IMG/VR virus record: IMGVR_UViG_3300022746_000001
Direction: 5' to 3' (one strand)
From: a virus
Lineage: Duplodnaviria; Heunggongvirae; Uroviricota; Caudoviricetes
Length of the DNA stretch: 64,000 nucleotides
The position numbers and the translations under genes are program-made. The notes under the pieces were generated by a model. That model had not been told where the DNA came from. It made no database searches and saw only the letters and a list, made by a program, of their open reading frames with translations. Shown here piece after piece: positions 1 to 34,111 of the stretch (position 1 is the first letter of the stretch; every line of letters starts with the position of its first letter).

Positions 1-239
1 TTTTTGTCGGTGATGCGGCCCAGATTAACCACCGGAACTTCGTCGTACCCCAGTGCTTTTGCGGCATCCCAACGGTGTTCACCGCCGATGATTTCAAGGG
101 CGCCGTCCGACTTCTCACGCACGACGATGGGTTTGAACATGCCGAAGCGCTTGACGCTTTCTTCGAGCTTGGATTGGTTCTCTGGCGACACGATGTTGGT
201 GTTCCAGGGGTTTGGACGCAGAGAGGCTGGATTCAGCAT
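1..239 (-). CDS. ParB-like nuclease/NTPase N-terminal domain protein (partial, C-terminus off window)
   Basis: minus-strand translation from ATG at 239: MLNPASLRPNPWNTNIVSPENQSKLEESVKRFGMFKPIVVREKSDGALEIIGGEHRWDAAKALGY; GGEHRW is the ParB/sulfiredoxin motif; absent from ORF track because it runs off the window. Confidence 0.6.
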   Translation of the reverse strand, partial: MLNPASLRPNPWNTNIVSPENQSKLEESVKRFGMFKPIVVREKSDGALEIIGGEHRWDAAKALGYDEVPVVNLGRITDK

Positions 240-299
240 CTCCACTTTGATTTTGCTTGCTTTGTGGTCAGCCACGGGATATTGCCTTATGGGGTGTTA

Positions 300-326
300 A
301 GTCACGACTGACTGAACTATAATCCT
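300..326 (+). promoter_or_regulatory. palindromic motif AGTCAC-GAC-TGACT followed by TATAAT, between divergent ParB-like and helicase genes
   Basis: read directly; member of repeated motif family. Confidence 0.5.
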
Positions 327-365
327 TATACAAAGACTTTGCAAGCCTTACAGAAGAGAAATTGG

Positions 366-1901
366 ATGACACAATCAGTAACCATCGCCTACAACGCAAC
401 CATTGCCAAATTGCATGAACCGACAAGACAAGCAAAACTGGCTGTGCAGCGGCTTGTTTCCTATCGCGTCGAAGGCGCAGAACACACCGGCGCGTTCAAA
501 ACCGGCAACTGGGATGGTCGCTCATCCTTCTTTGACTTCCGAAGCGGCACCTTTCCTGCTGGCTTCGTGAACTTTGTCGCCGCGCACCTCACCCGCGCCG
601 GCTACACCGTTCATCGCGTTCGAAAGCCCCTGCCCTTGCCACAAGGCCCAGAGAACCCAAAGGTCGATGAGTTTCCCGAAGACCCTCGCTACGACTATCA
701 GATGGAGGTAGTCAATCGGCTCTGCAAGCACGGCTCCATGATTGCGCAAGTAGCGACAGGTGGCGGTAAGTCTCGTATCGCGCGCCTGGCGTTCATGCGA
801 ATCAATCGCCCCACTCTGTTTCTGACAACGCGCGGCATTCTGATGTACCAAATGAAGGACACGTTCGAGACAGACCTTGGCGTGGCTTGCTCGGTGCTTG
901 GCGACGGTCAGTTTGGGCATGTCGGCCCCGACGGACGCCAGTACATTAAGAAAATGTCGGTGGGCATGGTGCAGACGCTGGTGTCGCGCCTTCAAGAGCC
1001 AAACCCCGACGATCCTGTGGACGTGCAAAACCGTCAGACCGCCATTCGCAACCAAACCATCGAGCTGCTTGGCAAATTCGAGTTCGTTATCGGCGAAGAG
1101 GCTCACGAAGCGTCGGGCAACAGCTATTACGAGATTCTGCGCCACTGCAAGAACGCTCACTACCGCTTGGCGCTAACTGCCACACCGTTCATGAAGGACG
1201 ACGAAGAGTCCAACATGCGTCTGATGGCTGCGTTCGGCCCTATCGGTATCAAGGTCACGGAGAAGATGTTGATCGACCGTGGCATCTTGGCGCGACCCAT
1301 CTTCAAATACCTGCCTCTGACCGTCAAACCCAACCACCTCATGCGCGGCGCCGGATGGCAAGCGGCGTACCGCCTTGGTATCGTTCAGAACGAGCAGCGT
1401 AACGGCATGATTATTGAAGAAGCCGCCCGCGCCGCGCGTTATGGCTTATCGACAATGATTCTCATCCAGCAAAAGAAGCATGGAGCGATTCTTGAGCAGG
1501 CGCTGAACGCGCGTGGTGTCAAAGCTCGGTTCATTGACGGTGACAGCGACCAAACAGAACGCAAACACGCGCTCAAGCAGCTCGCCAATCGTGAAATTGA
1601 TGTGCTGATAGGTTCGACAATTCTTGACGTTGGTGTAGACGTTCCTGCGGTCGGTATGGTGATCTTGGCCGGCGGCGGCAAAGCAGAGGTTGCCCTGCGT
1701 CAGCGTATCGGTCGCGGTCTGCGCGCCAAGAAGAAAGGCCCGAACATCGCCTTGATTGTGGACTTTGCCGATGACTTCAACATGCACCTGAAGTCTCATG
1801 CGCAGCAGCGCCACCAGATCGTGAAGGACACCGAGGGTTTCGGCGAGAATATCTTGAAGGCTGGCGCAGACTTTGACTACAAGGCTTTGGGGTTGATTTA
1901 A
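366..1901 (+). CDS. superfamily 2 DEAD/DEAH-type helicase
   Basis: VATGGGKS (Walker A), GEEAHEA (motif II), LTATPF (III), QRIGRGLR (VI); start moved to ATG 366 (track ORF begins at a TTG at 339). Confidence 0.8.
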   Translation: MTQSVTIAYNATIAKLHEPTRQAKLAVQRLVSYRVEGAEHTGAFKTGNWDGRSSFFDFRSGTFPAGFVNFVAAHLTRAGYTVHRVRKPLPLPQGPENPKVDEFPEDPRYDYQMEVVNRLCKHGSMIAQVATGGGKSRIARLAFMRINRPTLFLTTRGILMYQMKDTFETDLGVACSVLGDGQFGHVGPDGRQYIKKMSVGMVQTLVSRLQEPNPDDPVDVQNRQTAIRNQTIELLGKFEFVIGEEAHEASGNSYYEILRHCKNAHYRLALTATPFMKDDEESNMRLMAAFGPIGIKVTEKMLIDRGILARPIFKYLPLTVKPNHLMRGAGWQAAYRLGIVQNEQRNGMIIEEAARAARYGLSTMILIQQKKHGAILEQALNARGVKARFIDGDSDQTERKHALKQLANREIDVLIGSTILDVGVDVPAVGMVILAGGGKAEVALRQRIGRGLRAKKKGPNIALIVDFADDFNMHLKSHAQQRHQIVKDTEGFGENILKAGADFDYKALGLI

Positions 1902-2152
1902 TGTTGCAAAAACTGTGGCATGCCTTAGAATGTAAGTCATCAAAGACTTACTCCAAAGGTTCACACATGGGATATGCAATCGCTCTCAACCTTCTCATCA
2001 TCGCCTTCTTGAGTGGAGCGCTCTACCTCACAAGCAATCCGCTGGTGCTGTTCGGTCTGCTGCTCCTGAAAGAACTCCCTTATGGCTTGCTCGTACCGGA
2101 AGATGACGAGGAAGAAGGTAAACCTATGGGTTTCGTACACCCAGAAAAGTAA
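1901..2152 (+). CDS. small membrane protein (possible true start 1967)
   Basis: TAATG overlap with helicase stop; hydrophobic core AIALNLLIIAFLSGALYLTSNPLVLFGLLLL; acidic C-terminus. Confidence 0.4.
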   Translation: MLQKLWHALECKSSKTYSKGSHMGYAIALNLLIIAFLSGALYLTSNPLVLFGLLLLKELPYGLLVPEDDEEEGKPMGFVHPEK

Positions 2153-2261
2153 TACCTTTGAGTTGCAATCAAAACAAGTGCAACAAAAATCGTGCCAATT
2201 CTCAGAAAATAAGCGCGACGACCGTATAATCAAGCTCAGGATCATTTCTGAATACCTCCAT

Positions 2262-2288
2262 GCCCCGACACTCGGGGCTTTTTTTTGA
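2262..2288 (+). terminator. rho-independent terminator
   Basis: GCCCCGA-CACT-CGGGGC followed by T8. Confidence 0.7.
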
Positions 2289-2367
2289 ACTTTTTTGTTT
2301 GTATAAGGTTTGCGACAGTACAATACAACCATTCGCAATCATTTTGAAATTTTCACTGGAGAAAACC

Positions 2368-2646
2368 ATGCAAGAAGCTGAAGAAAAAGGCAAGCGCTAC
2401 GCTATCGTCGTCGAACAATCGGTACAGAACAAGCTGGCCGAGCTTGCCAAGCAGCACAAAATCTCTCAAGGCGCTGTTGTCGAAGAGTTGATGGGCTTGG
2501 TCAACACCGACGCACTGGCAAAAGCACTCGTTGCGCGCCGCGAACACAAGGTCTCAAACCGCAGCGGCAAGAGCGCAATCTTGAAGAAGCTCTCCAAGCT
2601 CAGTCCTGAGCAATTGGAAGCGCTGGCAGCTCAAATGAAGGTCTGA
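2368..2646 (+). CDS. ribbon-helix-helix-like DNA-binding protein (putative regulator)
   Basis: GGAGAAAACC RBS before ATG 2368; N-terminal beta strand KRYAIVVEQSV then helices, RHH-like. Confidence 0.5.
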   Translation: MQEAEEKGKRYAIVVEQSVQNKLAELAKQHKISQGAVVEELMGLVNTDALAKALVARREHKVSNRSGKSAILKKLSKLSPEQLEALAAQMKV

Positions 2647-2647
2647 C

Positions 2648-2812
2648 GTGACCTTAGAGACGTATGCGGGTGGGCCAGACGATCTGCCTACCTGCCCCAT
2701 CGACGGATGGCGGACTCAGACCATCGAGACCGACAAAGATGACGTGAACATCACGATCGAACTCTGTCCTCACTGTGGCAAGAAGTTTCGCTACATAGCG
2801 GAGGAAGAATGA
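2648..2812 (+). CDS. small zinc-ribbon protein (54 aa)
   Basis: GTG start 2 nt after upstream stop, ATGA overlap with next gene; CP...CPHCGKKF; below track size cutoff. Confidence 0.35.
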   Translation: MTLETYAGGPDDLPTCPIDGWRTQTIETDKDDVNITIELCPHCGKKFRYIAEEE

Positions 2813-3108
2813 ACACCCAAGACCAACCTAGCGCCCCCTCTTTTGAGTTTACGGGCGTTGCCAAGCGCAAGCTCGACGGCTTGCTGTCTGAAGGCTATGA
2901 GCTGAACGGCTACTGCTTTCAACAAACCTTAGAAGACGGAACCGTCAAGCGCGGAGCAATCACCGAGGGCGGAATGGTTCTTTGGTGGCACTCTGACCAC
3001 CCGCCTGTCAAGATTCCGTCTCGCATGACAGAAGACCCCTGCCCTGGCTGTCGCCCAGGCGTTGTCTGTCGCACCCCTCGCTGCGGACGACTCAAAACCC
3101 GCACCTAA
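2809..3108 (+). CDS. hypothetical Cys-rich protein
   Basis: ORF track; CPGCRPGVVCRTPRCG motif. Confidence 0.45.
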   Translation: MNTQDQPSAPSFEFTGVAKRKLDGLLSEGYELNGYCFQQTLEDGTVKRGAITEGGMVLWWHSDHPPVKIPSRMTEDPCPGCRPGVVCRTPRCGRLKTRT

Positions 3109-3126
3109 CACCCTCATAGCAGTGCC

Positions 3127-3369
3127 ATGACTGAAGCAGAAGACTGGGGCGAACTGTCCGAAGACGACATTCTGGAGCTTGTCGCGCCTACGCCCATACT
3201 GGTCGAACCCACAATTAACTACATCTGGGTGGCGCTCTACATAACGGAAGGTTGCAGCCTGCCCATGACCATGACTGGCTGCGACCGCAAACAAGTCATA
3301 AGTTGGGTGCGCGGCAGCTCCGCACTCGACCGAACCAAGCCAATTAAGCTGTACCGATTGGAATACTGA
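3127..3369 (+). CDS. hypothetical protein
   Basis: ORF track; same-strand operon context. Confidence 0.4.
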   Translation: MTEAEDWGELSEDDILELVAPTPILVEPTINYIWVALYITEGCSLPMTMTGCDRKQVISWVRGSSALDRTKPIKLYRLEY

Positions 3370-3578
3370 TGCCTGAACAACCACGCTATTGCTGCCACAA
3401 GTGTTTTCACAAAACAGGTGGCTTTCTTGACCGTATGCTGCTGTGCCCCGAGTGTGGCAACAAGCGCTGCCCCAAAGCGACCGATCACGATCTAGCCTGC
3501 ACGGACTCAAACGAGCCAGACCAGCCAGGCTCAATCTATGGTGGACGCCCCGTCGAGGGAGCAACCTCAGATGACTAA
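3369..3578 (+). CDS. hypothetical zinc-finger protein
   Basis: TGATG overlap with upstream; CCHKC...CPECGNKRC. Confidence 0.45.
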   Translation: MPEQPRYCCHKCFHKTGGFLDRMLLCPECGNKRCPKATDHDLACTDSNEPDQPGSIYGGRPVEGATSDD

Positions 3579-4053
3579 GAAGATCATCCTCAACGCCGCA
3601 GGCAAGGTCGAGCTAACCGTATGGCACAGCGGTTCAAACGTGTTCATCCAGCAGCCAGGCGCGGGACAGTCCTCGATGGACGTGCTGCTGCTGCCAGAAC
3701 TCATCAAGCAGCTTCAGAAAATCCAAAAAGAGACCATGCCGCTCCCACCCAGGAAGAACGACTGGAAAGAACTCGAAAAGACCTTCATGGACACCCAAGC
3801 GAGACTTCTGCAATGGGGACTGCAAGAGATACGGCTGCGAAGACAAGACCTGTCAAACCGAACAGAAGGCGGTCTGAAGATCGCGAAGCTGGCTGCAAAA
3901 TCACGACGCGAAGCCGCCGGCCTGACCGAAGCGGAAGCTGTGCTGTGGATGAAAGCTGCCCGTAAAGAGCTGGCAGACAGTCTCGTCAAAGAAGATGAGG
4001 CCCAAGCCACGATCAGCAGAGACGTTCCAGCCACAGACGAGGTGACATGGTGA
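3571..4053 (+). CDS. hypothetical protein
   Basis: GAGGGAG RBS before ATG 3571; ends ...DEVTW. Confidence 0.5.
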   Translation: MTKKIILNAAGKVELTVWHSGSNVFIQQPGAGQSSMDVLLLPELIKQLQKIQKETMPLPPRKNDWKELEKTFMDTQARLLQWGLQEIRLRRQDLSNRTEGGLKIAKLAAKSRREAAGLTEAEAVLWMKAARKELADSLVKEDEAQATISRDVPATDEVTW

Positions 4054-4211
4054 GCGACGCATGGAAACTCGGCAACCAAGCCGCATGGAGCTGGTGGGGA
4101 ACGCCACAACCACAAAACCCATTCACGGAAGGAACGCAAGAAGCAATCGACTGGGAAAAGGGTTTCGATATTGGCTGTGAAGACTATACGAACTGGTGGG
4201 AAAGCGAATGA
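4047..4211 (+). CDS. small Trp-rich protein (54 aa)
   Basis: ATGGTGA overlap with upstream stop; MVSDAWKLGNQAAWSWWG...NWWESE; below track cutoff. Confidence 0.35.
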   Translation: MVSDAWKLGNQAAWSWWGTPQPQNPFTEGTQEAIDWEKGFDIGCEDYTNWWESE

Positions 4212-4579
4212 GGGTTCTTGTCTGTGGCGGTCGCGATTACAGAGATTCTGCTTTCGTTAGTTTCGTTCTGGGCGTAATTCACGCAAAAAAATCAATCAAG
4301 CTGGTCATCCACGGTTGCGCACAAGGGGCAGACACCTTCGCAGAGCAATGGGCGTCTCAAATGAGCGATACGACAGCTTACGGTGTACCCGCAGACTGGA
4401 AGAAGCACGGTACGAGAGCTGGTCCCATCAGAAACAGGCTCATGCTGGAATTGGGCAAGCCAGATTTGGTCATTGCGTTCGAAGGCGGAGCTGGCACAAG
4501 GGACATGACGACTGCGGCGACAGCCGCTGGAGTGAAAGTCCTGTTTGCCGAGAAATTGCGACCACATTTCGAATCTTGA
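4208..4579 (+). CDS. DUF2493/SLOG-family Rossmann-fold protein (DprA/LOG-like)
   Basis: VLVCGGRDYRD...VIHGCAQGADTFAEQWA...GPIRNRLMLE...DLVIAFEGGAGTRDM matches SLOG/DUF2493 pattern. Confidence 0.6.
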   Translation: MRVLVCGGRDYRDSAFVSFVLGVIHAKKSIKLVIHGCAQGADTFAEQWASQMSDTTAYGVPADWKKHGTRAGPIRNRLMLELGKPDLVIAFEGGAGTRDMTTAATAAGVKVLFAEKLRPHFES

Positions 4580-4996
4580 GCCACTCAGCTCGAAATTTTT
4601 TGCTTGTATAAGGATAGACAATGTCCCCATCGGGTCATTTTTCTGTCGATCATGGGGATTTTGGTCAAAAATGTCCTCATCGGGGCATTTTCCATTGGGT
4701 CTTACGGATTCGGAGCCGGCTGTATAAGGACGTGAACTTAGGGTCTGCCTGGCTGTATAAGGGGCGCTAGGGGAGGTGGAAAACGAGGAAGGGGTCGCCT
4801 CCAAACCGAAGCACTTTTTCTAGGACTTCGGTATTATTTCTCCAATGTTTACTTTACGGTAAGCGCGTCATGCACTAACCACAAACAATAAACAAAACCT
4901 ATTGCAACCGCTGCACAATCAATTAAATCAATCATTGTTTAAACCTTGTTTGTTTGGTAAGTGGTGCAAGCTGTAACGCTTGCACCGTGTCACTCA

Positions 4997-5665
4997 TTAA
5001 GCATAGAACGCGATAACCGCGCGCGCTGCGTCATTCTCTCGCATTGTGATTGCATCATTGTTTTTTTGCTTGATAACGTTCGCAAGGTTCAACGCTTTGA
5101 GCATCATACGTGTGCTGCTTGCTTGAGTGCTTGCAGTTGATTCGCTGCAATTGTGCAAGCGTTTGAGCGTTTGCACTTGCTCTGTCTCGCTGTATTCGAT
5201 TGATTTACAAATGCTCATGCGTGATTCTTTGTTATTGATTGTTTGCAGCTTAACCAGATTAAACAAAATCGAGTTAGTGTAACCATCAAAACCAGAACGC
5301 GCATTGTTTGCAATTGCGTAAAGCGCTTTGCGTACTTTTTGCAGTGCATACACTGCGAGAAAATCATTTTTTGATTCTGTCTTCAATACTGCTATTTGAC
5401 GCGCAAGCGCTTGCAAATCAATTTTGAGCGCTTCGCACTTGCTCAGAATTACCGCTGCGTTTGCATCGTCAAAAAAACGATATTCTGCTGTGAGCGTGTC
5501 ACGCTGGTTATCATTGTCTGCGTTTTCAATTCTGCGTTTGATAGCTGCTAAAATTGCGGTTTGTGCTGCTGCTGCTGTGTCTGCTGCTGCTGTAGTTGCA
5601 ACCTTGCTTTGCTTTGCTTTTTTAGCTGCTGTAGTTGCTGCTGTGTTTGCGTTTGCTTTGCTCAT
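4997..5665 (-). CDS. hypothetical protein with Ala/Lys/Thr-rich histone-H1-like N-terminus
   Basis: AAAGGTGAAAAC RBS before ATG 5665; low-GC codon usage unlike neighbours. Confidence 0.5.
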   Translation of the reverse strand: MSKANANTAATTAAKKAKQSKVATTAAADTAAAAQTAILAAIKRRIENADNDNQRDTLTAEYRFFDDANAAVILSKCEALKIDLQALARQIAVLKTESKNDFLAVYALQKVRKALYAIANNARSGFDGYTNSILFNLVKLQTINNKESRMSICKSIEYSETEQVQTLKRLHNCSESTASTQASSTRMMLKALNLANVIKQKNNDAITMRENDAARAVIAFYA

Positions 5666-5859
5666 GTTTTCACCTTTAAAAGTTTGGTTTTTGAAACTCA
5701 ATCAAAATCAATTGAGTGAACGTAGTATAAACCAAAAAACAATCAAAAACCACGCAAGCACAAAAAAAAGTTGATTGTTTTTTTAAATCGCCATCATAGC
5801 TAAAAACAATCACACAAAATGCTTGTTTTGTGGTATACGTGAAAAACAATCAAGTCTCC

Positions 5860-6200
5860 TATAAGACAGGAGACAACTCTCCTAGGAGACAGGACATGGG
5901 TCTCCTATAAGACATAAGACAGGAGACAGGATGCGGACGATTCTCATTTAGGCGCCGATGCGGATGATCCGCATTTGCGATGCCGACTCCAGCTCCGACC
6001 CACGCACTGCCCTCTAACCTCCTAGGCAGCCCCAACCAGAGTCCATGCCGTACTCCATGCTCCTAGGCAAGTCCAACCAAAGCCCCTGCCGTACCCAATG
6101 GCGATGAGTACCAGTGTCCTACCCGTACCCAACCAGTGTTCGACCCGTTCCTAGGCGTCATCACGCTGCATAAAAGGGTGTGAAATCCATTCACACCCCC
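5860..6200. repeat. repeat-dense non-coding block: TCTCCT...AGGAGA palindromes, ATGCGGA-TG-ATCCGCAT palindrome, 33-bp imperfect direct repeats starting CCTAGGCA, CTGCCGTACCCAATGG copies
   Basis: read directly. Confidence 0.7.
6165..6198 (-). terminator. rho-independent terminator
   Basis: GGGTGTGAA-ATCCA-TTCACACCC then TTTTAT on minus strand. Confidence 0.5.
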
Positions 6201-6211
6201 TGCTCTATCCG

Positions 6212-6388
6212 TTAACGCTCGTCGTACAGGCGAGGTGTTCGGCGTACCGAGTGACCCTGACGCAGCATCTCTAGCTCCACGTCTTCTTGCATTTGGTCGT
6301 AGAAGTCTTCCTGGTCGTCGAATCGCTCGACAAATTGGAAGGTGTTGTTCTCTGTTGGCACAGGGTTAGTTTGAGCAATGCGTGACAT
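6212..6388 (-). CDS. small acidic protein (58 aa)
   Basis: AGGAG RBS 7 nt before ATG; MSRIAQTNPVPTENNTFQFVERFDDQEDFYDQMQEDVELEMLRQGHSVRRTPRLYDER; followed by hairpin terminator; below track cutoff. Confidence 0.45.
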   Translation of the reverse strand: MSRIAQTNPVPTENNTFQFVERFDDQEDFYDQMQEDVELEMLRQGHSVRRTPRLYDER

Positions 6389-6406
6389 GAGGTACTCCTG
6401 AAGCGG

Positions 6407-6661
6407 TTATTGCTTTGCGCTTGGTGTGGGGTACTGCATGCCGAACTCATCGGTTCGCTCGTCGTCTAGATCGCTATGCCCAAGAACATGCAAGCAATTG
6501 AGAATGGACGACATAGTGAATCCACCAGCGACATACAGACCGAACAACCACAGAGCGCCACCTCCATGTTGTTCAATTGCTTTGATGCAGGCGTATGCGA
6601 TTGCGGAACAGACCGTGATGGTCATTAAGGTGAGAACATAAACAGTTTGGCGATTGTTCAT
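6407..6661 (-). CDS. small membrane protein (2 TM)
   Basis: ORF track; hydrophobic segments. Confidence 0.5.
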   Translation of the reverse strand: MNNRQTVYVLTLMTITVCSAIAYACIKAIEQHGGGALWLFGLYVAGGFTMSSILNCLHVLGHSDLDDERTDEFGMQYPTPSAKQ

Positions 6662-6868
6662 GATTGTCTTTCATTTGTTGCACTCAAAATCGAGTAAATG
6701 AATTACATCATATAAAACAATCAAAAACCGCATGCCTAGATGATTGCCTGAAAGATCGCCTGCACTGGCCTAGGCGTCTTTTGGCCTACAGGTCAATGCT
6801 TACGGCCTAGGGGAATGTGTGGCCTGTGGCCTGAGAACCGAGCCTATCACTCGCTCGGTTTCTGTGGC

Positions 6869-7087
6869 CTACTCGTCGTCGAGATTCACGTAGTCAGGGG
6901 CATCCTGACGCTCAACCACGCGAATCGTCACACCTTCACAGACCGTTTCCAAGACGCTCTTGGTCGTTCTAACCAGCGCATCGAACGCTTCCTGCTCTAT
7001 GCGCTCGTCACGATTGTTCAAGGTCGCAAGCACTTGGAAGTCACCATCATCGCGGTCAAAGCCTATTGAAACGACTTCATGTGTCAT
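6869..7087 (-). CDS. hypothetical protein
   Basis: GGAG RBS, ATGA overlap with upstream gene. Confidence 0.5.
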   Translation of the reverse strand: MTHEVVSIGFDRDDGDFQVLATLNNRDERIEQEAFDALVRTTKSVLETVCEGVTIRVVERQDAPDYVNLDDE

Positions 7088-7335
7088 TGCGCACTCCAGT
7101 TCTTTTGATGCTCTTCCAACTTGATGGTCAGCGCGTAGATTGCTTCAAGCATTAGGGGAACAATATCAGCGCTTGCTTTCTTCGCTTTTTCCAAGCACTC
7201 AATTGCGTAATTAGGTGTGAAGAAGTAGATGGAGGATTCGTCAGCGTGATGCGAATCTTCGCCAAAACAATTGATAACCACACACAGGAGGTCTGCTTCG
7301 TCGTCGGTAAGGTTGCACTTGTCCAAGATGTTCAT
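7084..7335 (-). CDS. hypothetical protein
   Basis: ORF track; preceded by ACTCgattttGAGT palindrome element. Confidence 0.5.
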   Translation of the reverse strand: MNILDKCNLTDDEADLLCVVINCFGEDSHHADESSIYFFTPNYAIECLEKAKKASADIVPLMLEAIYALTIKLEEHQKNWSAQ

Positions 7336-7389
7336 GATGGTTTTGCGTTGTCACTCAAAATCGAGTGATTGAACTATAAGCGCAAAAAT

Positions 7390-8640
7390 CACTGCCTAAT
7401 CATGCTCGGTTCAATTCCCCTATAAGGTGTCCAATTCATGCTTTTCTCCTAGGGAGTTTCTTTTTAGGGGCAAACCTTATAGGGCAATGCCTAGGCAAAC
7501 TTATAGGAGTAGGCAAGCGAGCCTAGGCGAGCTTATACATTGGCAGAGCTTCCTAGAGTCTCCAATTGGCATTACCAGTGCCGCAGCCGTACCCAGTGGA
7601 TGAAAAGCCATCAAGGACATACCAGTCAGACAGCCGTACCCAATGGGTCAGTCCCTAGGGGTTTTGGATGCTTCGGACGCCGCGACTGGTCACGCTTTCT
7701 AGGCTTGGTCTCCTGTCTGCGAGTAGGCATGACGCCGATCCTGGGCTTTTGCCTAGGGACTTTGATGATGATCGTTTCTTTGGACATGCTCGAATTGTAG
7801 GGCGAAATTTCTTGTATAAGATTCGCCGCCGACTGCGTTAAATGATGAAGGGAATACTTCCCCCCAAACCTTATACATCTTTCCTAATTTTTCTTTTCCT
7901 ACTCTCTATCTACATACCTATACCTGAAGTTCTTCTTCCTAGCTTTTTATCATTCATTCTTCTATTCATCCTATGATTCATCCGTATGGTAGTTGTGGTC
8001 GTAGTCCTAGTCTTTATGCGGGTTCTTCGTTTCCGTGTCCGTCGTTTTGCTATTCATCTATCTATTCATCCTCTTAGCTGTTCCGATGTAGTTTGTGGTT
8101 GATTTTGTGCCTGTTCTTTTCTTAGCTGTTGTCGGTTCGGTTTGCTTTGGATTGTTTGTTCTTAGTTGTTTTGGGTGCCGAGTGTGTAAAGTTTGGGAAA
8201 GTTCTTCTTTACGTTTCTTGGGTTCTTTTTGGGGATGTGGGCAATTTCGGTCTGGCGTATATTTATATTTATTGCTTTTAAGGCTTATAGATTAAATGTC
8301 GCGGGATGGAAGAAAGCCTGACTCTGGCCTACGGGAGTTTGCTTACACTTTTCGGCCTCTGATTGTTCTCGGCCTCGTGTTTGATGCTTACGTGTTTTGG
8401 ACGGTCTCTTTAAACGACTTTTGAGCGCTTTTCCTGTGCTTGCTTAGTCGGTGGTATCAATGCTTGTTTGGCAGCGTTTTTGAGGTCGTTTTGAGTGCTT
8501 GGCCTATGGTCGTTTTTGCTTGCGTTTGTTTACATCAAAAAAGCTCAATTCCTGACAACTCAGGTGTCAGTTAGTGGTTGATGGGTCTTCCTCAAAAGTG
8601 GCGTTTTCCTGTTTAAAATCAATGACTTACGCCAAGGGGA
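7390..8640. repeat. non-coding region with CTTATA(G/C) iterons (7400-7860), CCTAGG-rich repeats, then T/G-rich direct repeats (7860-8640)
   Basis: read directly; no convincing ORFs. Confidence 0.65.
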
Positions 8641-33175: not shown

Positions 33176-33263
33176 TGGCGGAAGCGGTGAGATTCGAACT
33201 CACGGAACCTTGCGGTTCGACTGGGTTCAAGCCAGTTGCCATAGACCACTCGACCACACTTCC
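33176..33263 (-). tRNA. tRNA-Ser (anticodon UGA), CCA encoded
   Basis: long variable arm; anticodon loop CTTGAAC; T-arm GGTTCGAATCTC. Confidence 0.8.
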
Positions 33264-33270
33264 TAAATCT

Positions 33271-33355
33271 TGGTGCCCAGAGTCGGACTCGAACCGACAC
33301 GCCTCGCGGCGACGGCTTCTGAGGCCGTTGCGTCTACCAATTTCACCACCTGGGC
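33271..33355 (-). tRNA. tRNA-Leu (anticodon CAG), CCA encoded
   Basis: anticodon loop CTCAGAA; long variable arm; T-loop GTTCGAGTC. Confidence 0.8.
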
Positions 33356-33356
33356 T

Positions 33357-33432
<76 letters not shown>

Positions 33433-33535
33433 ATCATGAATGAAGGCTTTCGTCCAGCTCGGGATAGGTCGGTAGTTAGCCGTTTCAGTTTCACCCGTCC
33501 CCTGGGAATCGAACCCAGAAGCCTTCATTCATGAT
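33433..33535 (-). other. about 100-nt element with 15-bp terminal inverted repeats containing a tRNA T-arm-like hairpin (tRNA-like fragment / structured RNA / miniature insertion)
   Basis: ATCATGAATGAAGGC ... GCCTTCATTCATGAT flank CTGGGTTCGATTCCCAG (minus strand) and tandem TGAAAC repeats; no complete cloverleaf found. Confidence 0.35.
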
Positions 33536-33610
33536 GGTGCCGCCTTGAGGAATTGAACCCCAGACCTTCTGCTTACAAGGCAGCTGCTCTACCAACTGAG
33601 CTAAGGCGGC
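33535..33610 (-). tRNA. tRNA-Thr (anticodon UGU), CCA encoded
   Basis: GCCGCCTTAGCTCAGTTGGTAGAGC; anticodon loop CTTGTAA; 7-bp acceptor stem. Confidence 0.75.
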
Positions 33611-33614
33611 TTAA

Positions 33615-33691
33615 TGGTCGGAGATGCAGGATTCGAACCTGCGACCCTCTGCTCCCAAAGCAGATGCGCTACCAGACTGCGCTAATCTCCG
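33615..33691 (-). tRNA. tRNA-Pro (anticodon UGG), CCA encoded
   Basis: CGGAGATTAGCGCAGTCTGGTAGCGC; anticodon loop TTTGGGA. Confidence 0.8.
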
Positions 33692-33695
33692 ATAC

Positions 33696-33770
33696 TGGTA
33701 CTCGGTGCGGGAATCGAACCCGCCTTACCGCCGTGAAAGGGCGGTGTCCTAACCGATAGACGAACCGAGC
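33696..33770 (-). tRNA. tRNA-Glu (anticodon UUC), CCA encoded
   Basis: anticodon stem-loop CCGCC-CTTTCAC-GGCGG; T-arm GCGGGTTCGATTCCCGC. Confidence 0.75.
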
Positions 33771-33861
33771 GTTCCATCAAGTCTGTTCTCTCGTGGGTCA
33801 AGCTACTCCTTTGCCGTCAAGAGGCTTGTTTCACCATTCCTCTTAGAGAGGACAGACTTCA

Positions 33862-33937
33862 TGGCTCCCCAGGGTGGGTTCGAACCACCGACACATGGAT
33901 TAACAGTCCATTGCTCTACCAACTGAGCTACTAGGGA
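33862..33937 (-). tRNA. tRNA-Asn (anticodon GUU), CCA encoded
   Basis: TCCCTAGTAGCTCAGTTGGTAGAGC; anticodon loop CTGTTAA. Confidence 0.8.
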
Positions 33938-34034
33938 ATGACGGTGCGTATGGAGTTGTACCCCAGACGTTTGTCGGCTTTTATAGTCCCCACACCTTTA
34001 GGACTACCGTGTCTCTGTTCTTCTTGCAAGAAAC

Positions 34035-34111
34035 TGGTTGCGGGGGCAGGACTCGAACCTGCGACCTCTGGATTATGAGTCCAGCGCTCTAACCTACTGA
34101 GCTACCCCGCT
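34035..34111 (-). tRNA. tRNA-Met (anticodon CAU; elongator or Ile2-type), CCA encoded
   Basis: anticodon loop CTCATAA; A1xA72 unpaired; no GGG/CCC initiator anticodon stem. Confidence 0.7.

What the first reader, a model, noticed from the sequence alone, without database searches (positions are those of the whole stretch)
1..4579. Divergent ParB-like nuclease / SF2 helicase module with Zn-ribbon minigenes and a SLOG-domain protein
A minus-strand ParB-N (GGEHRWDAAKALGY) gene is transcribed divergently from a plus-strand operon, the only long plus-strand stretch in the window. The operon encodes an SF2 DEAH helicase, a tiny membrane protein, an RHH regulator behind its own terminator and promoter, five very small Cys/Trp-rich proteins joined by overlapping stop-start codons, and a DUF2493/SLOG (DprA/LOG-like) protein, and ends at a terminator. 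The shared intergenic region carries the palindromic motif, a TATAAT and a CCTTATACA iteron. The nuclease + helicase + SLOG combination, of unclear role (early host takeover, recombination, or a conflict system), is worth testing as a unit.
Basis: partly seen in the sequence, partly recalled or inferred. Interest (0 to 1): 0.6.

Follow-up and report, generated by a model that had tools for sequence, protein, structure and literature searches.

The report
Phage helicase–ParB junction with accessory cassette
This is the ordinary, lineage-conserved boundary between the packaging genes and a UvsW-type helicase in a ~106-kb freshwater phage, followed by a small self-regulated cassette of swappable mini-genes ending in a widespread phage SLOG protein. 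It is not a dedicated nuclease–helicase–SLOG machine.

Summary
They include a ParB_N gene cut by the window edge, a divergent UvsW-type SF2 helicase, a small membrane protein and a terminator. After these come a CopG-like RHH gene, a translationally coupled chain of Cys/Trp-rich minigenes and a YAcAr/YpsA-clade SLOG protein. The palindrome and the CCTTATACA box in the shared intergenic region are also real. The window is 100% identical to a 105.7-kb JGI metagenome contig.

The "unit" idea is not supported.
- ParB and helicase are divergent neighbours in every relative that could be checked: 52 of 52 IMG/VR loci plus SSU5, BUCTxx99, RHph_N1_15 and hairong. All belong to one phage supergroup, where ParB heads the ParB–ParB–ATPase–terminase–portal operon, so this is inherited synteny.
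- SLOG is facultative: it lies downstream in 13 of 37 relatives with enough flank.
- In 69 unrelated SLOG-bearing viral loci, SLOG never sits with ParB. It sits mostly beside integrase, terminase or portal genes.

The conserved core is helicase–membrane protein | RHH–[0–2.3 kb of variable minigenes]–SLOG. The TGTATAAGG box lies inside the spacers of the ParB and RHH promoters and forms a conserved 33–34-bp array after the operon, which suggests repressor control.

Verdict: known families in a known arrangement. Interest is low to moderate.

The parts
3..275 (-). N-terminal 91 codons of ParB1, a 220-aa ParB_N-domain protein. It is the first gene of the leftward ParB1-ParB2-ABC ATPase-thioredoxin-...-TerL-portal operon.
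   Evidence: Translation. Pfam ParB_N 1e-13 and phrog_723 1.6e-30. Full gene and upstream operon seen in L056. Closest solved relatives are Spo0J and Noc, but the GERRxR box reads GEHRWD.
276..365 (.). Divergent promoter region. The leftward promoter is TTGCAA (344-339), a 17-nt spacer, then TATAGT (321-316). The TGTATAAGG box (332-324, minus strand) lies in that spacer. The palindrome AGTCACGACTGACT (300-313) lies at about +1. The rightward TATAAT (318-323) overlaps the leftward -10.
   Evidence: Promoter scan, sequence, motif statistics. The same layout is conserved in L003, L005 and L015.
366..1901 (+). UvsW-type SF2 (DExH-variant) DNA helicase, 511 aa.
   Evidence: Pfam ResIII and Helicase_C, with UvsW_N weak; phrog_16 1e-99. 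T4 UvsW 2oca at 2e-18, matching the N-domain and the core. Motifs GGGKS, EEAH, TATP and QRIGRGLR are visible in the translation.
1901..2152 (+). Small membrane protein. It is 83 aa if translationally coupled to the helicase, or 61 aa from the ATG at 1967 that JGI called.
   Evidence: Hydropathy 2.0-2.1 over 19 residues. Conserved directly after the helicase in about 30 loci, and in the closest ones the alignment extends over the N-terminal 22 residues.
2262..2287 (+). Intrinsic terminator (GCCCCGACACTCGGGGC plus T8) that ends the helicase unit.
   Evidence: Terminator scan. Relatives have hairpin plus T-run at the same place with different stem sequences.
2295..2324 (+). Promoter-like TTGTTT, 18-nt spacer, TACAAT, with the TGTATAAGG box (2300-2308) in the spacer.
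   Evidence: Read from the sequence. It scores below the scan's threshold in the window. L006 and L007 have TTGATC/TTGAAC, 16-nt spacer, TATAAT with the box in the spacer.
2368..2646 (+). CopG-like ribbon-helix-helix DNA-binding protein, 92 aa, with a conserved C-terminal helical extension.
   Evidence: 16-member family alignment A2. Its profile hits CopG 1b01/2cpg at E=1.3e-3 over residues 9-47, then the RHH proteins Reg576 and MazE7. Weak Pfam hits to SopB_HTH, RepB-RCR_reg and ParG.
2648..2812 (+). 54-aa minigene with CPxD...CPxCGKKFR, a zinc-ribbon-like motif.
   Evidence: Homologue only in L003/L004, with 45% identity over 38 aa at E=1e-5 and the Cys pattern conserved. It was not called by JGI. 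This is the weakest coding evidence in the set.
2809..3108 (+). 99-aa minigene with an invariant C-terminal DPCPGCRP...CRTPxCGRL zinc knuckle.
   Evidence: Family F4 is present in 7 related loci, always right after RHH, and varies from 63 to 274 aa. Only 10 lineage-restricted relatives among 5.8 billion proteins, none with a Pfam domain.
3127..3369 (+). 80-aa minigene of unknown function.
   Evidence: 58% identical homologue in L003/L004 at E=5e-28. No Pfam or PHROG hit.
3369..3578 (+). 69-aa Cys-rich minigene (YCCHKC...CPxCGNKRCPKATDHxLAC).
   Evidence: 76% identical homologue in L012 at E=8e-28, with all Cys conserved. It was not called by JGI.
3571..4053 (+). 160-aa charged protein of unknown function. 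An alternative start at 3538 would give 171 aa.
   Evidence: Only 5 relatives at E<=1e-3 among 1.84 billion representative proteins. A partial homologue is in L012. Absent from the near-identical strain variant L059.
4047..4211 (+). 54-aa Trp-rich minigene.
   Evidence: The ORF has overlapping start and stop junctions and was called by JGI. No homologue in the 53 related loci. Absent from L059.
4208..4579 (+). YAcAr (DUF2493) protein of the YpsA-like clade of the SLOG superfamily, 123 aa. It is the terminal gene of the RHH unit.
4580..4996 (+). Conserved non-coding element just outside the finding. It holds TGTATAAGG boxes at 4605, 4721 and 4754, the last two 33 bp apart. It also holds two hairpin plus T-run units and the invariant boxes GAGGAAGG and TAGGACTTCG.
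   Evidence: Sequence. Box arrays are seen in about 12 related loci and the invariant boxes in 14, including loci without SLOG. No Rfam match and no covarying structure.

Best explanation
The region is the backbone junction of a ~106-kb tailed phage, judged by its TerL, portal, tRNA cluster and replication genes. The phage belongs to the supergroup that includes the SSU5-like phage-plasmids, Stenotrophomonas phage BUCTxx99, the Rhizobium RHEph10/RHph phages and Pseudomonas Nickievirus.

**Leftward operon.** A sigma-70-type promoter drives ParB1, ParB2, an ABC-type ATPase, thioredoxin and eventually TerL and portal.

**Rightward units.** There are two.
- Unit 1 encodes a UvsW-type SF2 helicase and a small membrane protein, and ends at a strong, conserved terminator. 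By analogy with T4 UvsW, I infer that the helicase remodels forks, Holliday junctions and R-loops during recombination-dependent replication. This would fit with the SbcCD, ligase, polymerase and primase genes elsewhere in the window.
- Unit 2 starts at its own promoter. It encodes a CopG-like RHH protein, then a translationally coupled chain of lineage-specific Zn-knuckle and Trp-rich minigenes, and ends with a YpsA-clade SLOG protein. The chain is exchangeable cargo: 0 to 2.3 kb in relatives, and different even between near-identical strains.

**Regulation (inferred).** The 9-mer TGTATAAGG sits inside the spacer of both the ParB promoter and the RHH promoter. I infer that it is an operator through which a phage repressor gives a self-limiting burst of expression, as Arc does in P22 immI. 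The RHH protein is the most likely repressor.

**SLOG (inferred).** SLOG most likely binds or cleaves a nucleotide-derived small molecule through its GxD pocket. I favour a counter-signalling or host-manipulation role (about 0.45) over a DprA-like, helicase-associated DNA role (about 0.3).

**Shown versus inferred.** Shown here: domain identities, gene order, conservation pattern, and motif positions and enrichment. Inferred: all biochemical activities, who binds the box, and timing.

The three headline genes are neighbours by descent, not a three-part machine.
For: **Identity of the source.** The window is 100% identical to JGI contig Ga0228703_1000066.

**Supergroup synteny.** The portal-TerL-...-ATPase-ParB2-ParB1 <-> helicase layout is found in BUCTxx99, SSU5, RHph_N1_15 and hairong. 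ParB lies divergently next to the helicase in all 52 IMG/VR loci that extend left of the helicase.

**Helicase.** It matches T4 UvsW across both domains.

**Gene-family map.** The order is helicase-F3-F1(RHH)-[variable]-F2(SLOG). In five loci (L018, L020, L021, L023, L024) RHH abuts SLOG directly.

**Minigenes.** They are lineage-restricted ORFans with conserved Cys motifs. Cargo differs between the near-identical strains L056 and L059.

**RHH.** The family profile hits CopG.

**Box.** It lies in the promoter spacers and its position is conserved in relatives.

**SLOG.**
- Structure and family assignment.
- An invariant GAD matches the GxD/E substrate-binding signature of the YpsA clade (PMC6459960).
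- Viral SLOGs are common (19% of medium-sized phages) and predicted to act on ADPr-derived signals (PMC9503650).
- Elsewhere SLOG sits next to integrase, TerL or portal in unrelated phages.

**Defence systems.** No defence-system signature was found.
Against: - No expression or biochemical data exist for any gene here.
- L015 keeps the TGTATAAGG boxes, at the ParB promoter and in a 4-copy array, but has no RHH gene downstream of its helicase. The always-present ParB paralogues are an alternative.
- All box copies near genes point in the direction of transcription, which would also fit a promoter element.
- The CopG hit is marginal (E=1.3e-3).
- The RHH promoter in the window is below the scan's threshold.
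- SLOG is sometimes adjacent or fused to helicases. Examples are the Leszy UvrD-type helicase, L146 and ICP1 HelB (10.1101/671271). A helicase-linked role therefore cannot be dismissed.
Confidence: 0.65

Rival explanations
1. ParB-like nuclease, SF2 helicase and SLOG act together as one system, for host-DNA takeover or degradation, recombination, or a conflict or counter-defence machine. The nuclease would cut, the helicase would unwind and SLOG would sense or load.
For: - ParB and helicase are invariably adjacent and divergent, sharing one 90-bp control region.
- SLOG lies downstream on the helicase strand in 17 related loci.
- SLOG is adjacent or fused to helicases elsewhere (10.1101/671271; PMC9503650 lists SF1 helicase fusions).
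- The helicase gives generic hits to PbeA, type IV REase and DpdF helicase models.
Against: - The adjacency is confined to one phage supergroup and coincides with an operon boundary.
- SLOG is missing from 24 of 37 relatives and from the sampled flanks of all four isolate genomes.
- SLOG is separated from the helicase by a conserved terminator and its own promoter.
- No ParB_N lies near SLOG in 69 unrelated loci.
- ParB1 resembles CTP-switch ParBs rather than any characterised nuclease, and its Arg box is degenerate.
- The PADLOC hits are to shared helicase and ParB domains only.
Confidence: 0.06
2. A plasmid-type partition and maintenance module. The TGTATAAGG repeats would be a centromere-like site. 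They would be bound by ParB1/ParB2, or by a ParG/omega-like RHH, and moved by the neighbouring ABC-type ATPase. This would fit the phage-plasmid lifestyle of SSU5 relatives.
For: - SSU5-like relatives are phage-plasmids (PMC7969092 abstract).
- There are arrays of 2-4 direct repeats at 33-34 bp spacing.
- The box lies in the ParB promoter, as in autoregulated par operons.
- RHH gives weak Pfam hits to SopB_HTH and ParG.
- RHph_N1_15 carries a ParA plus a small regulator downstream of its helicase.
- An integrase or recombinase-like gene lies at 56.2-57.6 kb.
Against: - The ParB pair and ATPase are equally conserved in BUCTxx99, Nickievirus and the Rhizobium phages, in the same place in the packaging operon. 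As far as I know, those phages have not been described as phage-plasmids.
- No ParA/Walker-type partition ATPase homologue is in the 64-kb window.
- No HTH or centromere-binding domain was detected in ParB1.
- The box is absent from the more distant relatives that keep the ParBs.
Confidence: 0.08
3. The RHH-to-SLOG unit is a dedicated counter-defence cassette. An RHH-autoregulated early operon would serve as an insertion hotspot for small anti-defence proteins. It would end in a SLOG protein that sequesters or degrades ADPr-derived immune signals of the Thoeris or TIR type.
For: - RHH-SLOG is the conserved core, with variable cargo between them.
- Cargo differs between near-identical strains.
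- SLOG is structurally close to YpsA and to the ThsA SLOG domain bound to 3'cADPR.
- Iyer et al. predict exactly this role for viral SLOGs (PMC9503650).
- A sister strain carries a Tad2-like gene nearby.
- Unrelated phages keep SLOG in accessory positions next to integrase or terminase, and one has SLOG alongside Fic and DUF4326.
Against: - No experimental anti-defence activity is reported for any YAcAr protein in the papers found.
- None of the minigenes matches a known anti-defence family.
- SLOG also occurs next to replication genes and helicases.
- The operator-repressor link is inferred.
Confidence: 0.2

Closest known systems
SSU5-supergroup / Nickievirus / RHEph10-type backbone (published genomes SSU5 JQ965645, BUCTxx99 OR529408, RHph_N1_15 MN988506, hairong OM223115)
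   Same: The gene order is the same: portal, TerL, ATPase(s), two ParB_N genes, then a divergent UvsW-like helicase followed by a ~60-95-aa protein. Helicase identity is 42-51% and ParB identity 50-53%.
   Different: Those genomes lack the RHH-minigene-SLOG unit within the sampled flanks and lack the TGTATAAGG box. The window's clade is known only from metagenomes: 85% helicase identity at best, and no megablast hit among isolate phages.
T4 UvsW helicase
   Same: Same length (511 aa against the 510-residue 2oca chain). It has the UvsW-type N-terminal domain with the GNWDGR motif and an SF2 core, and UvsW is its best solved relative.
   Different: Similarity is low: E=2e-18 overall, and the Pfam UvsW_N hit is below its cut-off (22.4 against 25.3 bits). 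Motif II is EEAH rather than DECH. No UvsW.1 equivalent was identified.
YAcAr / YpsA-like clade of the SLOG superfamily (PF10686; Burroughs et al. 2015 as cited in PMC6459960 and PMC9503650)
   Same: The Pfam hit is above its cut-off. The protein is a five-stranded Rossmannoid whose closest fold is YpsA. The GxD signature is conserved. It is a stand-alone small phage protein, as in hundreds of phages.
   Different: Here it is the terminal gene of an RHH-led unit downstream of a UvsW-type helicase. No Macro, NADAR or Nudix partner was seen in the neighbourhood.
P22 immI (Arc/Mnt RHH repressors) and CopG-type autoregulation
   Same: A small RHH gene comes first in its operon, with a conserved site inside its own promoter spacer and a payload downstream.
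   Different: Binding is untested. The site is a single 9-mer per promoter, an 8-of-10 imperfect palindrome CTTGTATAAG. The same site also occurs in the divergent ParB promoter and in a distal array.
ICP1 HelB (SF1B helicase fused to DUF2493) and Brevundimonas phage Leszy (UvrD-type helicase overlapping a YAcAr gene)
   Same: The same SLOG family is physically linked to a DNA helicase in a phage (10.1101/671271).
   Different: The helicase superfamily differs (SF1, not SF2). Here 0.65-3 kb, a terminator and a promoter separate the two genes.

Membership tests
ParB/Srx N-terminal domain family (PF02195) | Sequence match to the ParB_N profile above the curated threshold | tested here: met
   51.5 bits for the window fragment and 55.2 bits for the full 220-aa protein, against a cut-off of 26.3. 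The best solved relatives are Spo0J and Noc.
ParB/Srx N-terminal domain family (PF02195) | Canonical CTP-binding arginine patch GERRxR(A), as in partition ParB, Noc and KorB | tested here: not met
   It aligns to GERRYRAA of Spo0J as GEHRWDAA, so only one of the three Arg residues is retained.
ParB-like nuclease | Demonstrated or motif-supported nuclease active site | not testable with these tools
   Only legacy annotation names support 'nuclease'. No nuclease-specific profile or solved nuclease relative was found.
ParABS partition system | Cognate ParA (Walker-type ATPase), a ParB with a DNA-binding domain, and a centromere | tested here: not met
   No ParA homologue is in the window. No HTH was detected in ParB1. 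Repeat arrays exist, but their binder is unknown.
UvsW-type SF2 helicase | SF2 core with motifs I, II, III and VI | tested here: met
   ResIII 54 bits and Helicase_C 53 bits. GGGKS, EEAH, TATP and QRIGRGLR are present in the translation.
UvsW-type SF2 helicase | UvsW N-terminal domain | tested here: inconclusive
   Pfam UvsW_N scores 22.4 bits, below its 25.3 cut-off. However, residues 30-80 align to UvsW 28-77 with a conserved GNWDGR motif.
UvsW-type SF2 helicase | Branch-migration or R-loop unwinding activity | not testable with these tools
   Inferred from T4 UvsW only.
YAcAr (PF10686), YpsA-like clade of SLOG | Profile match above threshold, and a Rossmannoid five-strand fold closest to YpsA | tested here: met
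YAcAr (PF10686), YpsA-like clade of SLOG | GxD/E substrate-binding signature | tested here: met
   G40 and D42 are invariant and A41 is at least 90% conserved across 45 homologues down to 48% identity. The signature is described in PMC6459960.
DprA (recombination mediator) | Match to the DNA_processg_A profile, and the SAM or DML1 accessory domains | tested here: not met
LOG phosphoribohydrolase | PGGxGTxxE catalytic motif | tested here: inconclusive
   The family consensus is FPGGxGTADM, and the window protein has FEGGAGTRDM. The motif is similar, but the catalytic Glu position is Met.
Ribbon-helix-helix (CopG/Arc/MetJ) regulators | N-terminal beta-strand, helix, turn, helix motif detectable by profile | tested here: met
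   The profile of 16 family members hits CopG (1b01, 2cpg) at E=1.3e-3 over the full 45-aa fold, then Reg576 and MazE7. The score is marginal, but the hits are all RHH proteins.
Known anti-phage defence or anti-defence systems (PADLOC-DB v2) | Specific match of the components to one system's models | tested here: not met
   Only domain-level hits were found. The ParBs hit the ParB domain of an MTase_II model, the helicase hits the PbeA, mREase_IV and DpdF helicase cores, and the ATPase hits mad3 and mad8. RHH, the minigenes and SLOG gave none.
   Helicase-anchored survey: 13 of 37 relatives have SLOG. SLOG-anchored survey: none of 69 unrelated loci has ParB_N, and 2 of 69 have an SF2 helicase. 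The phmmer sensitivity for distant ParB_N is limited.

The most novel reading that the evidence does not exclude
The RHH-to-SLOG transcription unit is a self-limiting, repressor-gated counter-defence locus. It would be a conserved 'docking bay' between an RHH gene and a YpsA-clade SLOG gene, into which Zn-knuckle minigenes are swapped. The SLOG protein would be a new family of phage proteins that sequester or cleave ADPr-derived immune signals. A variant reading is that the SLOG protein senses such signals to modulate the neighbouring UvsW-type helicase.
Probability: 0.18. Interest if true: 0.55.

Novelty: new member of a known kind. Interest (0 to 1): 0.25.

Why it matters
As a whole the region is ordinary. 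It shows that an eye-catching nuclease + helicase + SLOG neighbourhood is inherited genome architecture plus an accessory cassette, so it should not be prioritised as a new system.

Three by-products have some value.
- **A clean natural experiment.** The same RHH and SLOG genes are either fused end to end or separated by up to 2.3 kb of exchangeable minigenes. This marks a hotspot where small phage accessory proteins could be mined.
- **A cheap regulatory model to test.** Two strongly enriched, position-conserved motifs are available for an uncultivated phage clade: TGTATAAGG, and AGTCA-N4-TGACT (12 copies against 0.08 expected).
- **A context for studying YAcAr SLOG proteins.** These are among the commonest uncharacterised phage domains. 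Here is a small, confidently modelled member in a defined operon context.

Tried and rejected
- **Megablast** of 1-5000 against 50,697 phage records gave no match. tblastn and IMG/VR were needed instead.
- **Rfam** at E<=1 on 1-8500 gave only two chance-level hits inside the coding region of the 4997-5701 gene.
- **PADLOC** gave no system-level match.
- **Nick-motif lead.** I followed a lead that relatives named 'nickie' have motif-associated DNA nicks. The paper found (PMC11780129) concerns an unrelated ~45-kb tf-like group with the motif WACTRTGAC, so it is not relevant.
- **Sequence search of solved structures with the SLOG profile** gave only chance BtuF hits. Fold comparison was needed.
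- **Conserved element at 4770-4853.** I tested whether it is a structured RNA. RNAalifold found 4 invariant pairs and no covariation.
- **Toxin-antitoxin reading of RHH-SLOG.** I rejected it as the primary reading. Up to 2.3 kb of other genes are tolerated between the two, and SLOG is overwhelmingly a stand-alone phage gene elsewhere.
- **TGTATAAGG as a sigma-70 -10 or extended -10 element.** Its distance to good -35 and -10 hexamers varies from 2 to 10 nt, and the array copies have no partner hexamers. I therefore prefer an operator reading, without excluding a promoter element.
- **RHH homologue search** in the 5.8-billion-protein set returned only 4 proteins.
- **Literature search** for a described ParB-like + UvsW module found nothing specific.

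Full report
**What is there**

- **ParB1.** On the minus strand, codons 1-91 of a ParB_N protein run from a GTG at 275 off the left edge of the window, and the fragment contains GGEHRWDAAKALGY. Pfam ParB_N scores 51.5 bits against a cut-off of 26.3, and phrog_723 gives 1.6e-30.
- **Helicase.** A 511-aa SF2 helicase lies at 366-1901, with ResIII, Helicase_C and phrog_16 at 1e-99.
- **Membrane protein.** A small hydrophobic protein lies at 1901/1967-2152. Its 19-residue hydropathy window reaches 2.0-2.1.
- **Terminator.** A strong hairpin plus T8 lies at 2262-2278.
- **RHH.** A 92-aa protein lies at 2368-2646.
- **Minigenes.** Six small ORFs of 54, 99, 80, 69, 160 and 54 aa follow. Their junctions are a 1-nt gap, a 4-nt overlap, an 18-nt gap, and overlaps of 1, 8, 7 and 4 nt.
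- **SLOG.** A 123-aa YAcAr (DUF2493) protein lies at 4208-4579, scoring 55.1 bits against 28.2.

The window is 100% identical over its first 12 kb to JGI metagenome contig Ga0228703_1000066, which is 105,728 bp. That contig supplies the missing upstream DNA.

The rest of the window encodes ribonucleotide reductase, SbcCD, a 1151-aa DNA polymerase, an ATP-dependent ligase, a primase, an RNA ligase, an integrase-like recombinase and eight tRNAs. This is the replication half of a large tailed phage.

**Who the relatives are**

Megablast against isolate phages finds nothing. tblastn with the helicase finds 42-51% identical proteins in these groups:

- Stenotrophomonas phage BUCTxx99
- Xanthomonas phage JGB6
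- the Rhizobium RHEph10/RHph phages
- SSU5-like phage-plasmids
- Pseudomonas Nickievirus phages

All have genomes of roughly 103-122 kb.

Four annotated examples share one layout: portal, TerL, one or two ABC-type ATPases, two tandem ParB_N genes, then a divergent helicase followed by a 60-95-aa protein. The source contig has the same leftward operon: ParB1 220 aa, an 85-aa ORF, ParB2 218 aa, a 122-aa protein, an ABC-type ATPase of 221 aa, thioredoxin, and on to TerL.

IMG/VR yielded 53 further loci with 48-85% helicase identity.

**Test of the 'unit' idea, anchored on the helicase**

I ran tblastn with every module protein against these loci.

- ParB lies divergently next to the helicase in all 52 loci that extend to the left.
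- The membrane protein is found in about 30 loci and the RHH in about 24.
- SLOG lies downstream on the same strand in 17 loci.
- Among the 37 loci with at least 3.5 kb downstream of the helicase, 13 have SLOG. That is 11 of 21 at 68% helicase identity or more, and 2 of 16 below 61%.
- None of the four isolate genomes has SLOG within the sampled flanks.

A family map shows the fixed order: helicase, F3 (membrane protein), F1 (RHH), a variable segment, then F2 (SLOG). In five loci the RHH stop abuts the SLOG start, with a helicase-to-SLOG gap of about 650 bp. In the window's clade, 0.7-2.3 kb of patchy minigenes are inserted there.

Even near-identical strains differ. L059 lacks the 160-aa and Trp-rich genes.

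**The same test, anchored on SLOG**

SLOG homologues occur in 867 isolate phage records and in at least 581 IMG/VR stretches.

Of 80 fetched IMG/VR loci, 11 belong to this lineage. In ten of them the flank reaches the ParB1, ParB2, ATPase and helicase genes, and all four are found there. In the other 69:

- phmmer with ParB1 or ParB2 finds no ParB_N.
- phmmer with the helicase finds only two distant SF2 helicases.
- The recurrent same-strand neighbours are tyrosine integrase (15 loci), TerL (8) and P22-type portal (7). These are typical accessory positions in temperate phages.

Sampled isolate phages put SLOG in varied settings:

- next to TerL in PHB04
- in an Erf-containing early-gene region in MinM2
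- among nucleotide-metabolism genes in RcIroh
- next to a replication initiator in Silvergun
- next to a DNA polymerase in the Klebsiella phages
- overlapping a UvrD-type SF1 helicase in Leszy

ICP1 HelB is an SF1B helicase fused to DUF2493 (10.1101/671271). Iyer et al. list sporadic fusions of SLOG to SF1 helicases (PMC9503650).

So a loose, recurrent SLOG-helicase association exists. The three-gene cassette does not recur. PADLOC gives only domain-level hits.

**What the individual proteins are**

*Helicase.* Its best solved relative is T4 UvsW (2oca, 2e-18). The alignment covers both the N-terminal domain, with a conserved GNWDGR motif, and the SF2 core, and the proteins are the same length. 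Motifs GGGKS, EEAH, TATP and QRIGRGLR are intact.

*ParB1.* It resembles the CTP-switch ParBs Spo0J and Noc, at 4e-11. However, the GERRxR box reads GEHRWD, and no DNA-binding domain is detectable. 'Nuclease' is a legacy label without support here.

*RHH.* A profile built from 16 homologues hits CopG at E=1.3e-3 across the whole CopG fold, then the RHH proteins Reg576 and MazE7.

*SLOG.*
- The AF2 model has pLDDT 97.3.
- The invariant residues CGGR, GxxxGAD and RN include the GxD/E signature that is required for YpsA function (PMC6459960).

*Minigenes.*
- They have no Pfam or PHROG family.
- The 99-aa protein has 10 lineage-restricted relatives among 5.8 billion proteins.
- The 160-aa protein has 5 relatives among 1.84 billion representatives.
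- Translated conservation supports coding for the 99-, 80-, 69- and 160-aa ORFs (E from 1e-16 to 1e-29).
- Support is weaker for the first 54-aa ORF (1e-5), and there is none for the Trp-rich one.
- The Cys motifs CPxD...CPxC, CPGC...CRTPxC and CCHKC...CPxCGNKRC are conserved.

**Regulatory anatomy**

*The ParB promoter.* The 90-bp intergenic region has a leftward promoter, TTGCAA, a 17-nt spacer, then TATAGT. The rightward TATAAT at 318-323 overlaps its -10.

The pattern gives 17 matches in the window at up to 1 mismatch against 5.0±1.9 expected, and 7 of them are exact.

A second copy lies in the spacer of a promoter-like TTGTTT-18-TACAAT upstream of RHH. In L006 and L007 the equivalent promoter is a better one: TTGATC/TTGAAC, a 16-nt spacer, then TATAAT.

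*The box array.* A third set forms an array of 2-4 direct copies (GGCTGTATAAGG) at 33-34 bp spacing just after the operon. The array is followed by invariant GAGGAAGG and TAGGACTTCG boxes. Box arrays are seen in about 12 relatives and the invariant boxes in 14, including loci without SLOG.

*The palindrome.* AGTCA-N4-TGACT at 300-313, about +1 of the ParB promoter, is one of 12 copies in the window against 0.08 expected. Eleven of them lie just upstream of leftward genes.

The terminator before RHH is conserved with different stems in relatives. The helicase and the RHH-to-SLOG genes are therefore separate transcription units.

**Most likely mechanism**

*Shown.* The region is a lineage-conserved operon junction. 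It has a UvsW-type helicase unit, plus an RHH-led unit with exchangeable cargo that ends in a YpsA-clade SLOG.

*Inferred.*
- The helicase serves recombination-dependent replication, as T4 UvsW does.
- The RHH protein binds the TGTATAAGG box to shut down its own unit and the ParB/packaging promoter, in the manner of Arc.
- SLOG binds or cleaves a nucleotide-derived ligand.

For SLOG I favour a counter-signalling or host-manipulation role (about 0.45), following the prediction of Iyer et al. and its accessory-type contexts. A DprA-like, helicase-coupled role comes second (about 0.3).

*Caveats.*
- L015 keeps the boxes but has no RHH gene downstream of the helicase, so another protein, possibly the ParB paralogues, may read the box.
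- L047 has an RHH gene that tblastn missed.
- No structured RNA was detected in the conserved non-coding element.

**Comparison with known systems, and novelty**

All the annotatable components belong to known families, and the ParB-helicase layout is already present in published genomes. What is new is modest.

- The clade is uncultivated.
- The RHH-[cargo]-SLOG architecture has not been described.
- Two regulatory motifs are conserved in sequence and position.

I rate the finding as a new member of a known kind, with interest of about 0.25.

The most novel reading not excluded is that the RHH-to-SLOG unit is a repressor-gated counter-defence locus, and that its SLOG protein is an anti-signalling factor. 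I put its probability at about 0.18.

Noticed in passing
window 300-313, 16545, 27503, 29052, 33075, 34159, 36908, 38716, 41777, 46786, 52920, 55084: The palindrome AGTCA-N4-TGACT occurs 12 times against 0.08 expected. Its arms are invariant and its spacer varies. Eleven copies lie immediately upstream of leftward genes or operons (RNR, SbcD, SbcC, DNA polymerase, the tRNA cluster and others), often 2-5 nt after a -10-like box. It looks like a genome-wide promoter-proximal operator or a 5'-leader hairpin.
   Followed up: partly
window 4580-4996: A conserved non-coding element lies between SLOG and the convergent gene at 4997-5701. It contains a TGTATAAGG array at 33 bp spacing, two near-identical hairpin plus T-run units (about 4620-4645 and 4670-4695), and the invariant boxes GAGGAAGG and TAGGACTTCG about 30 nt apart. 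The invariant boxes are conserved in 14 related loci and box arrays in about 12, including loci that lack SLOG. There is no Rfam hit and no covarying structure. Its function is unknown: operator array, centromere-like site, origin or short transcript.
   Followed up: partly
L056 1-6068 (upstream of the window); L001, L002, L067, L068: Two tandem ParB_N paralogues plus one or two ABC-type ATPases, and here a thioredoxin and a weakly SprT-like 122-aa protein, always sit between the helicase and TerL/portal across the whole supergroup. This includes relatives not known to be phage-plasmids. Their role in a packaging-proximal operon is unexplained.
   Followed up: partly
L057 2378-2665(-); L067 5959-6261(-): A near-identical strain variant of the window's phage carries an extra Tad2-like (PF11195) gene in the leftward operon. 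Rhizobium phage RHph_N1_15 has a gene annotated as DUF2829-domain-containing at the equivalent place. I recall DUF2829 to be the older name of the same family, but I did not check this. It hints that these phages meet TIR or Thoeris-type signalling defences.
   Followed up: no
L059 3839-4075 versus window 3369-4211: A strain variant with an identical SLOG lacks the 160-aa and Trp-rich 54-aa genes. This shows very recent gain or loss of minigene cargo.
   Followed up: no
window 4997-5701(-): A 234-aa protein with an Ala/Thr-rich N-terminus has no Pfam, PHROG or PADLOC hit. It is conserved, convergent to the rightward operon, in about 25 related loci.
   Followed up: no
window 33176-34111(-): A cluster of eight tRNA genes (Ser, Leu, Trp, Thr, Pro, Glu, Asn, Met) lies directly downstream of one copy of the AGTCA-N4-TGACT palindrome (34159).
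   Followed up: no
L146 742-3288: An unrelated viral contig has an intein-containing SF2 helicase about 600 nt upstream of its YAcAr SLOG gene. This is another sporadic helicase-SLOG adjacency.
   Followed up: no
window 1904-1931: A promoter-like TTGCAA-16-TAGAAT lies at the very end of the helicase gene, ahead of the membrane-protein ORF. It is one of only two sites the scan reported in 1-6000.
   Followed up: no
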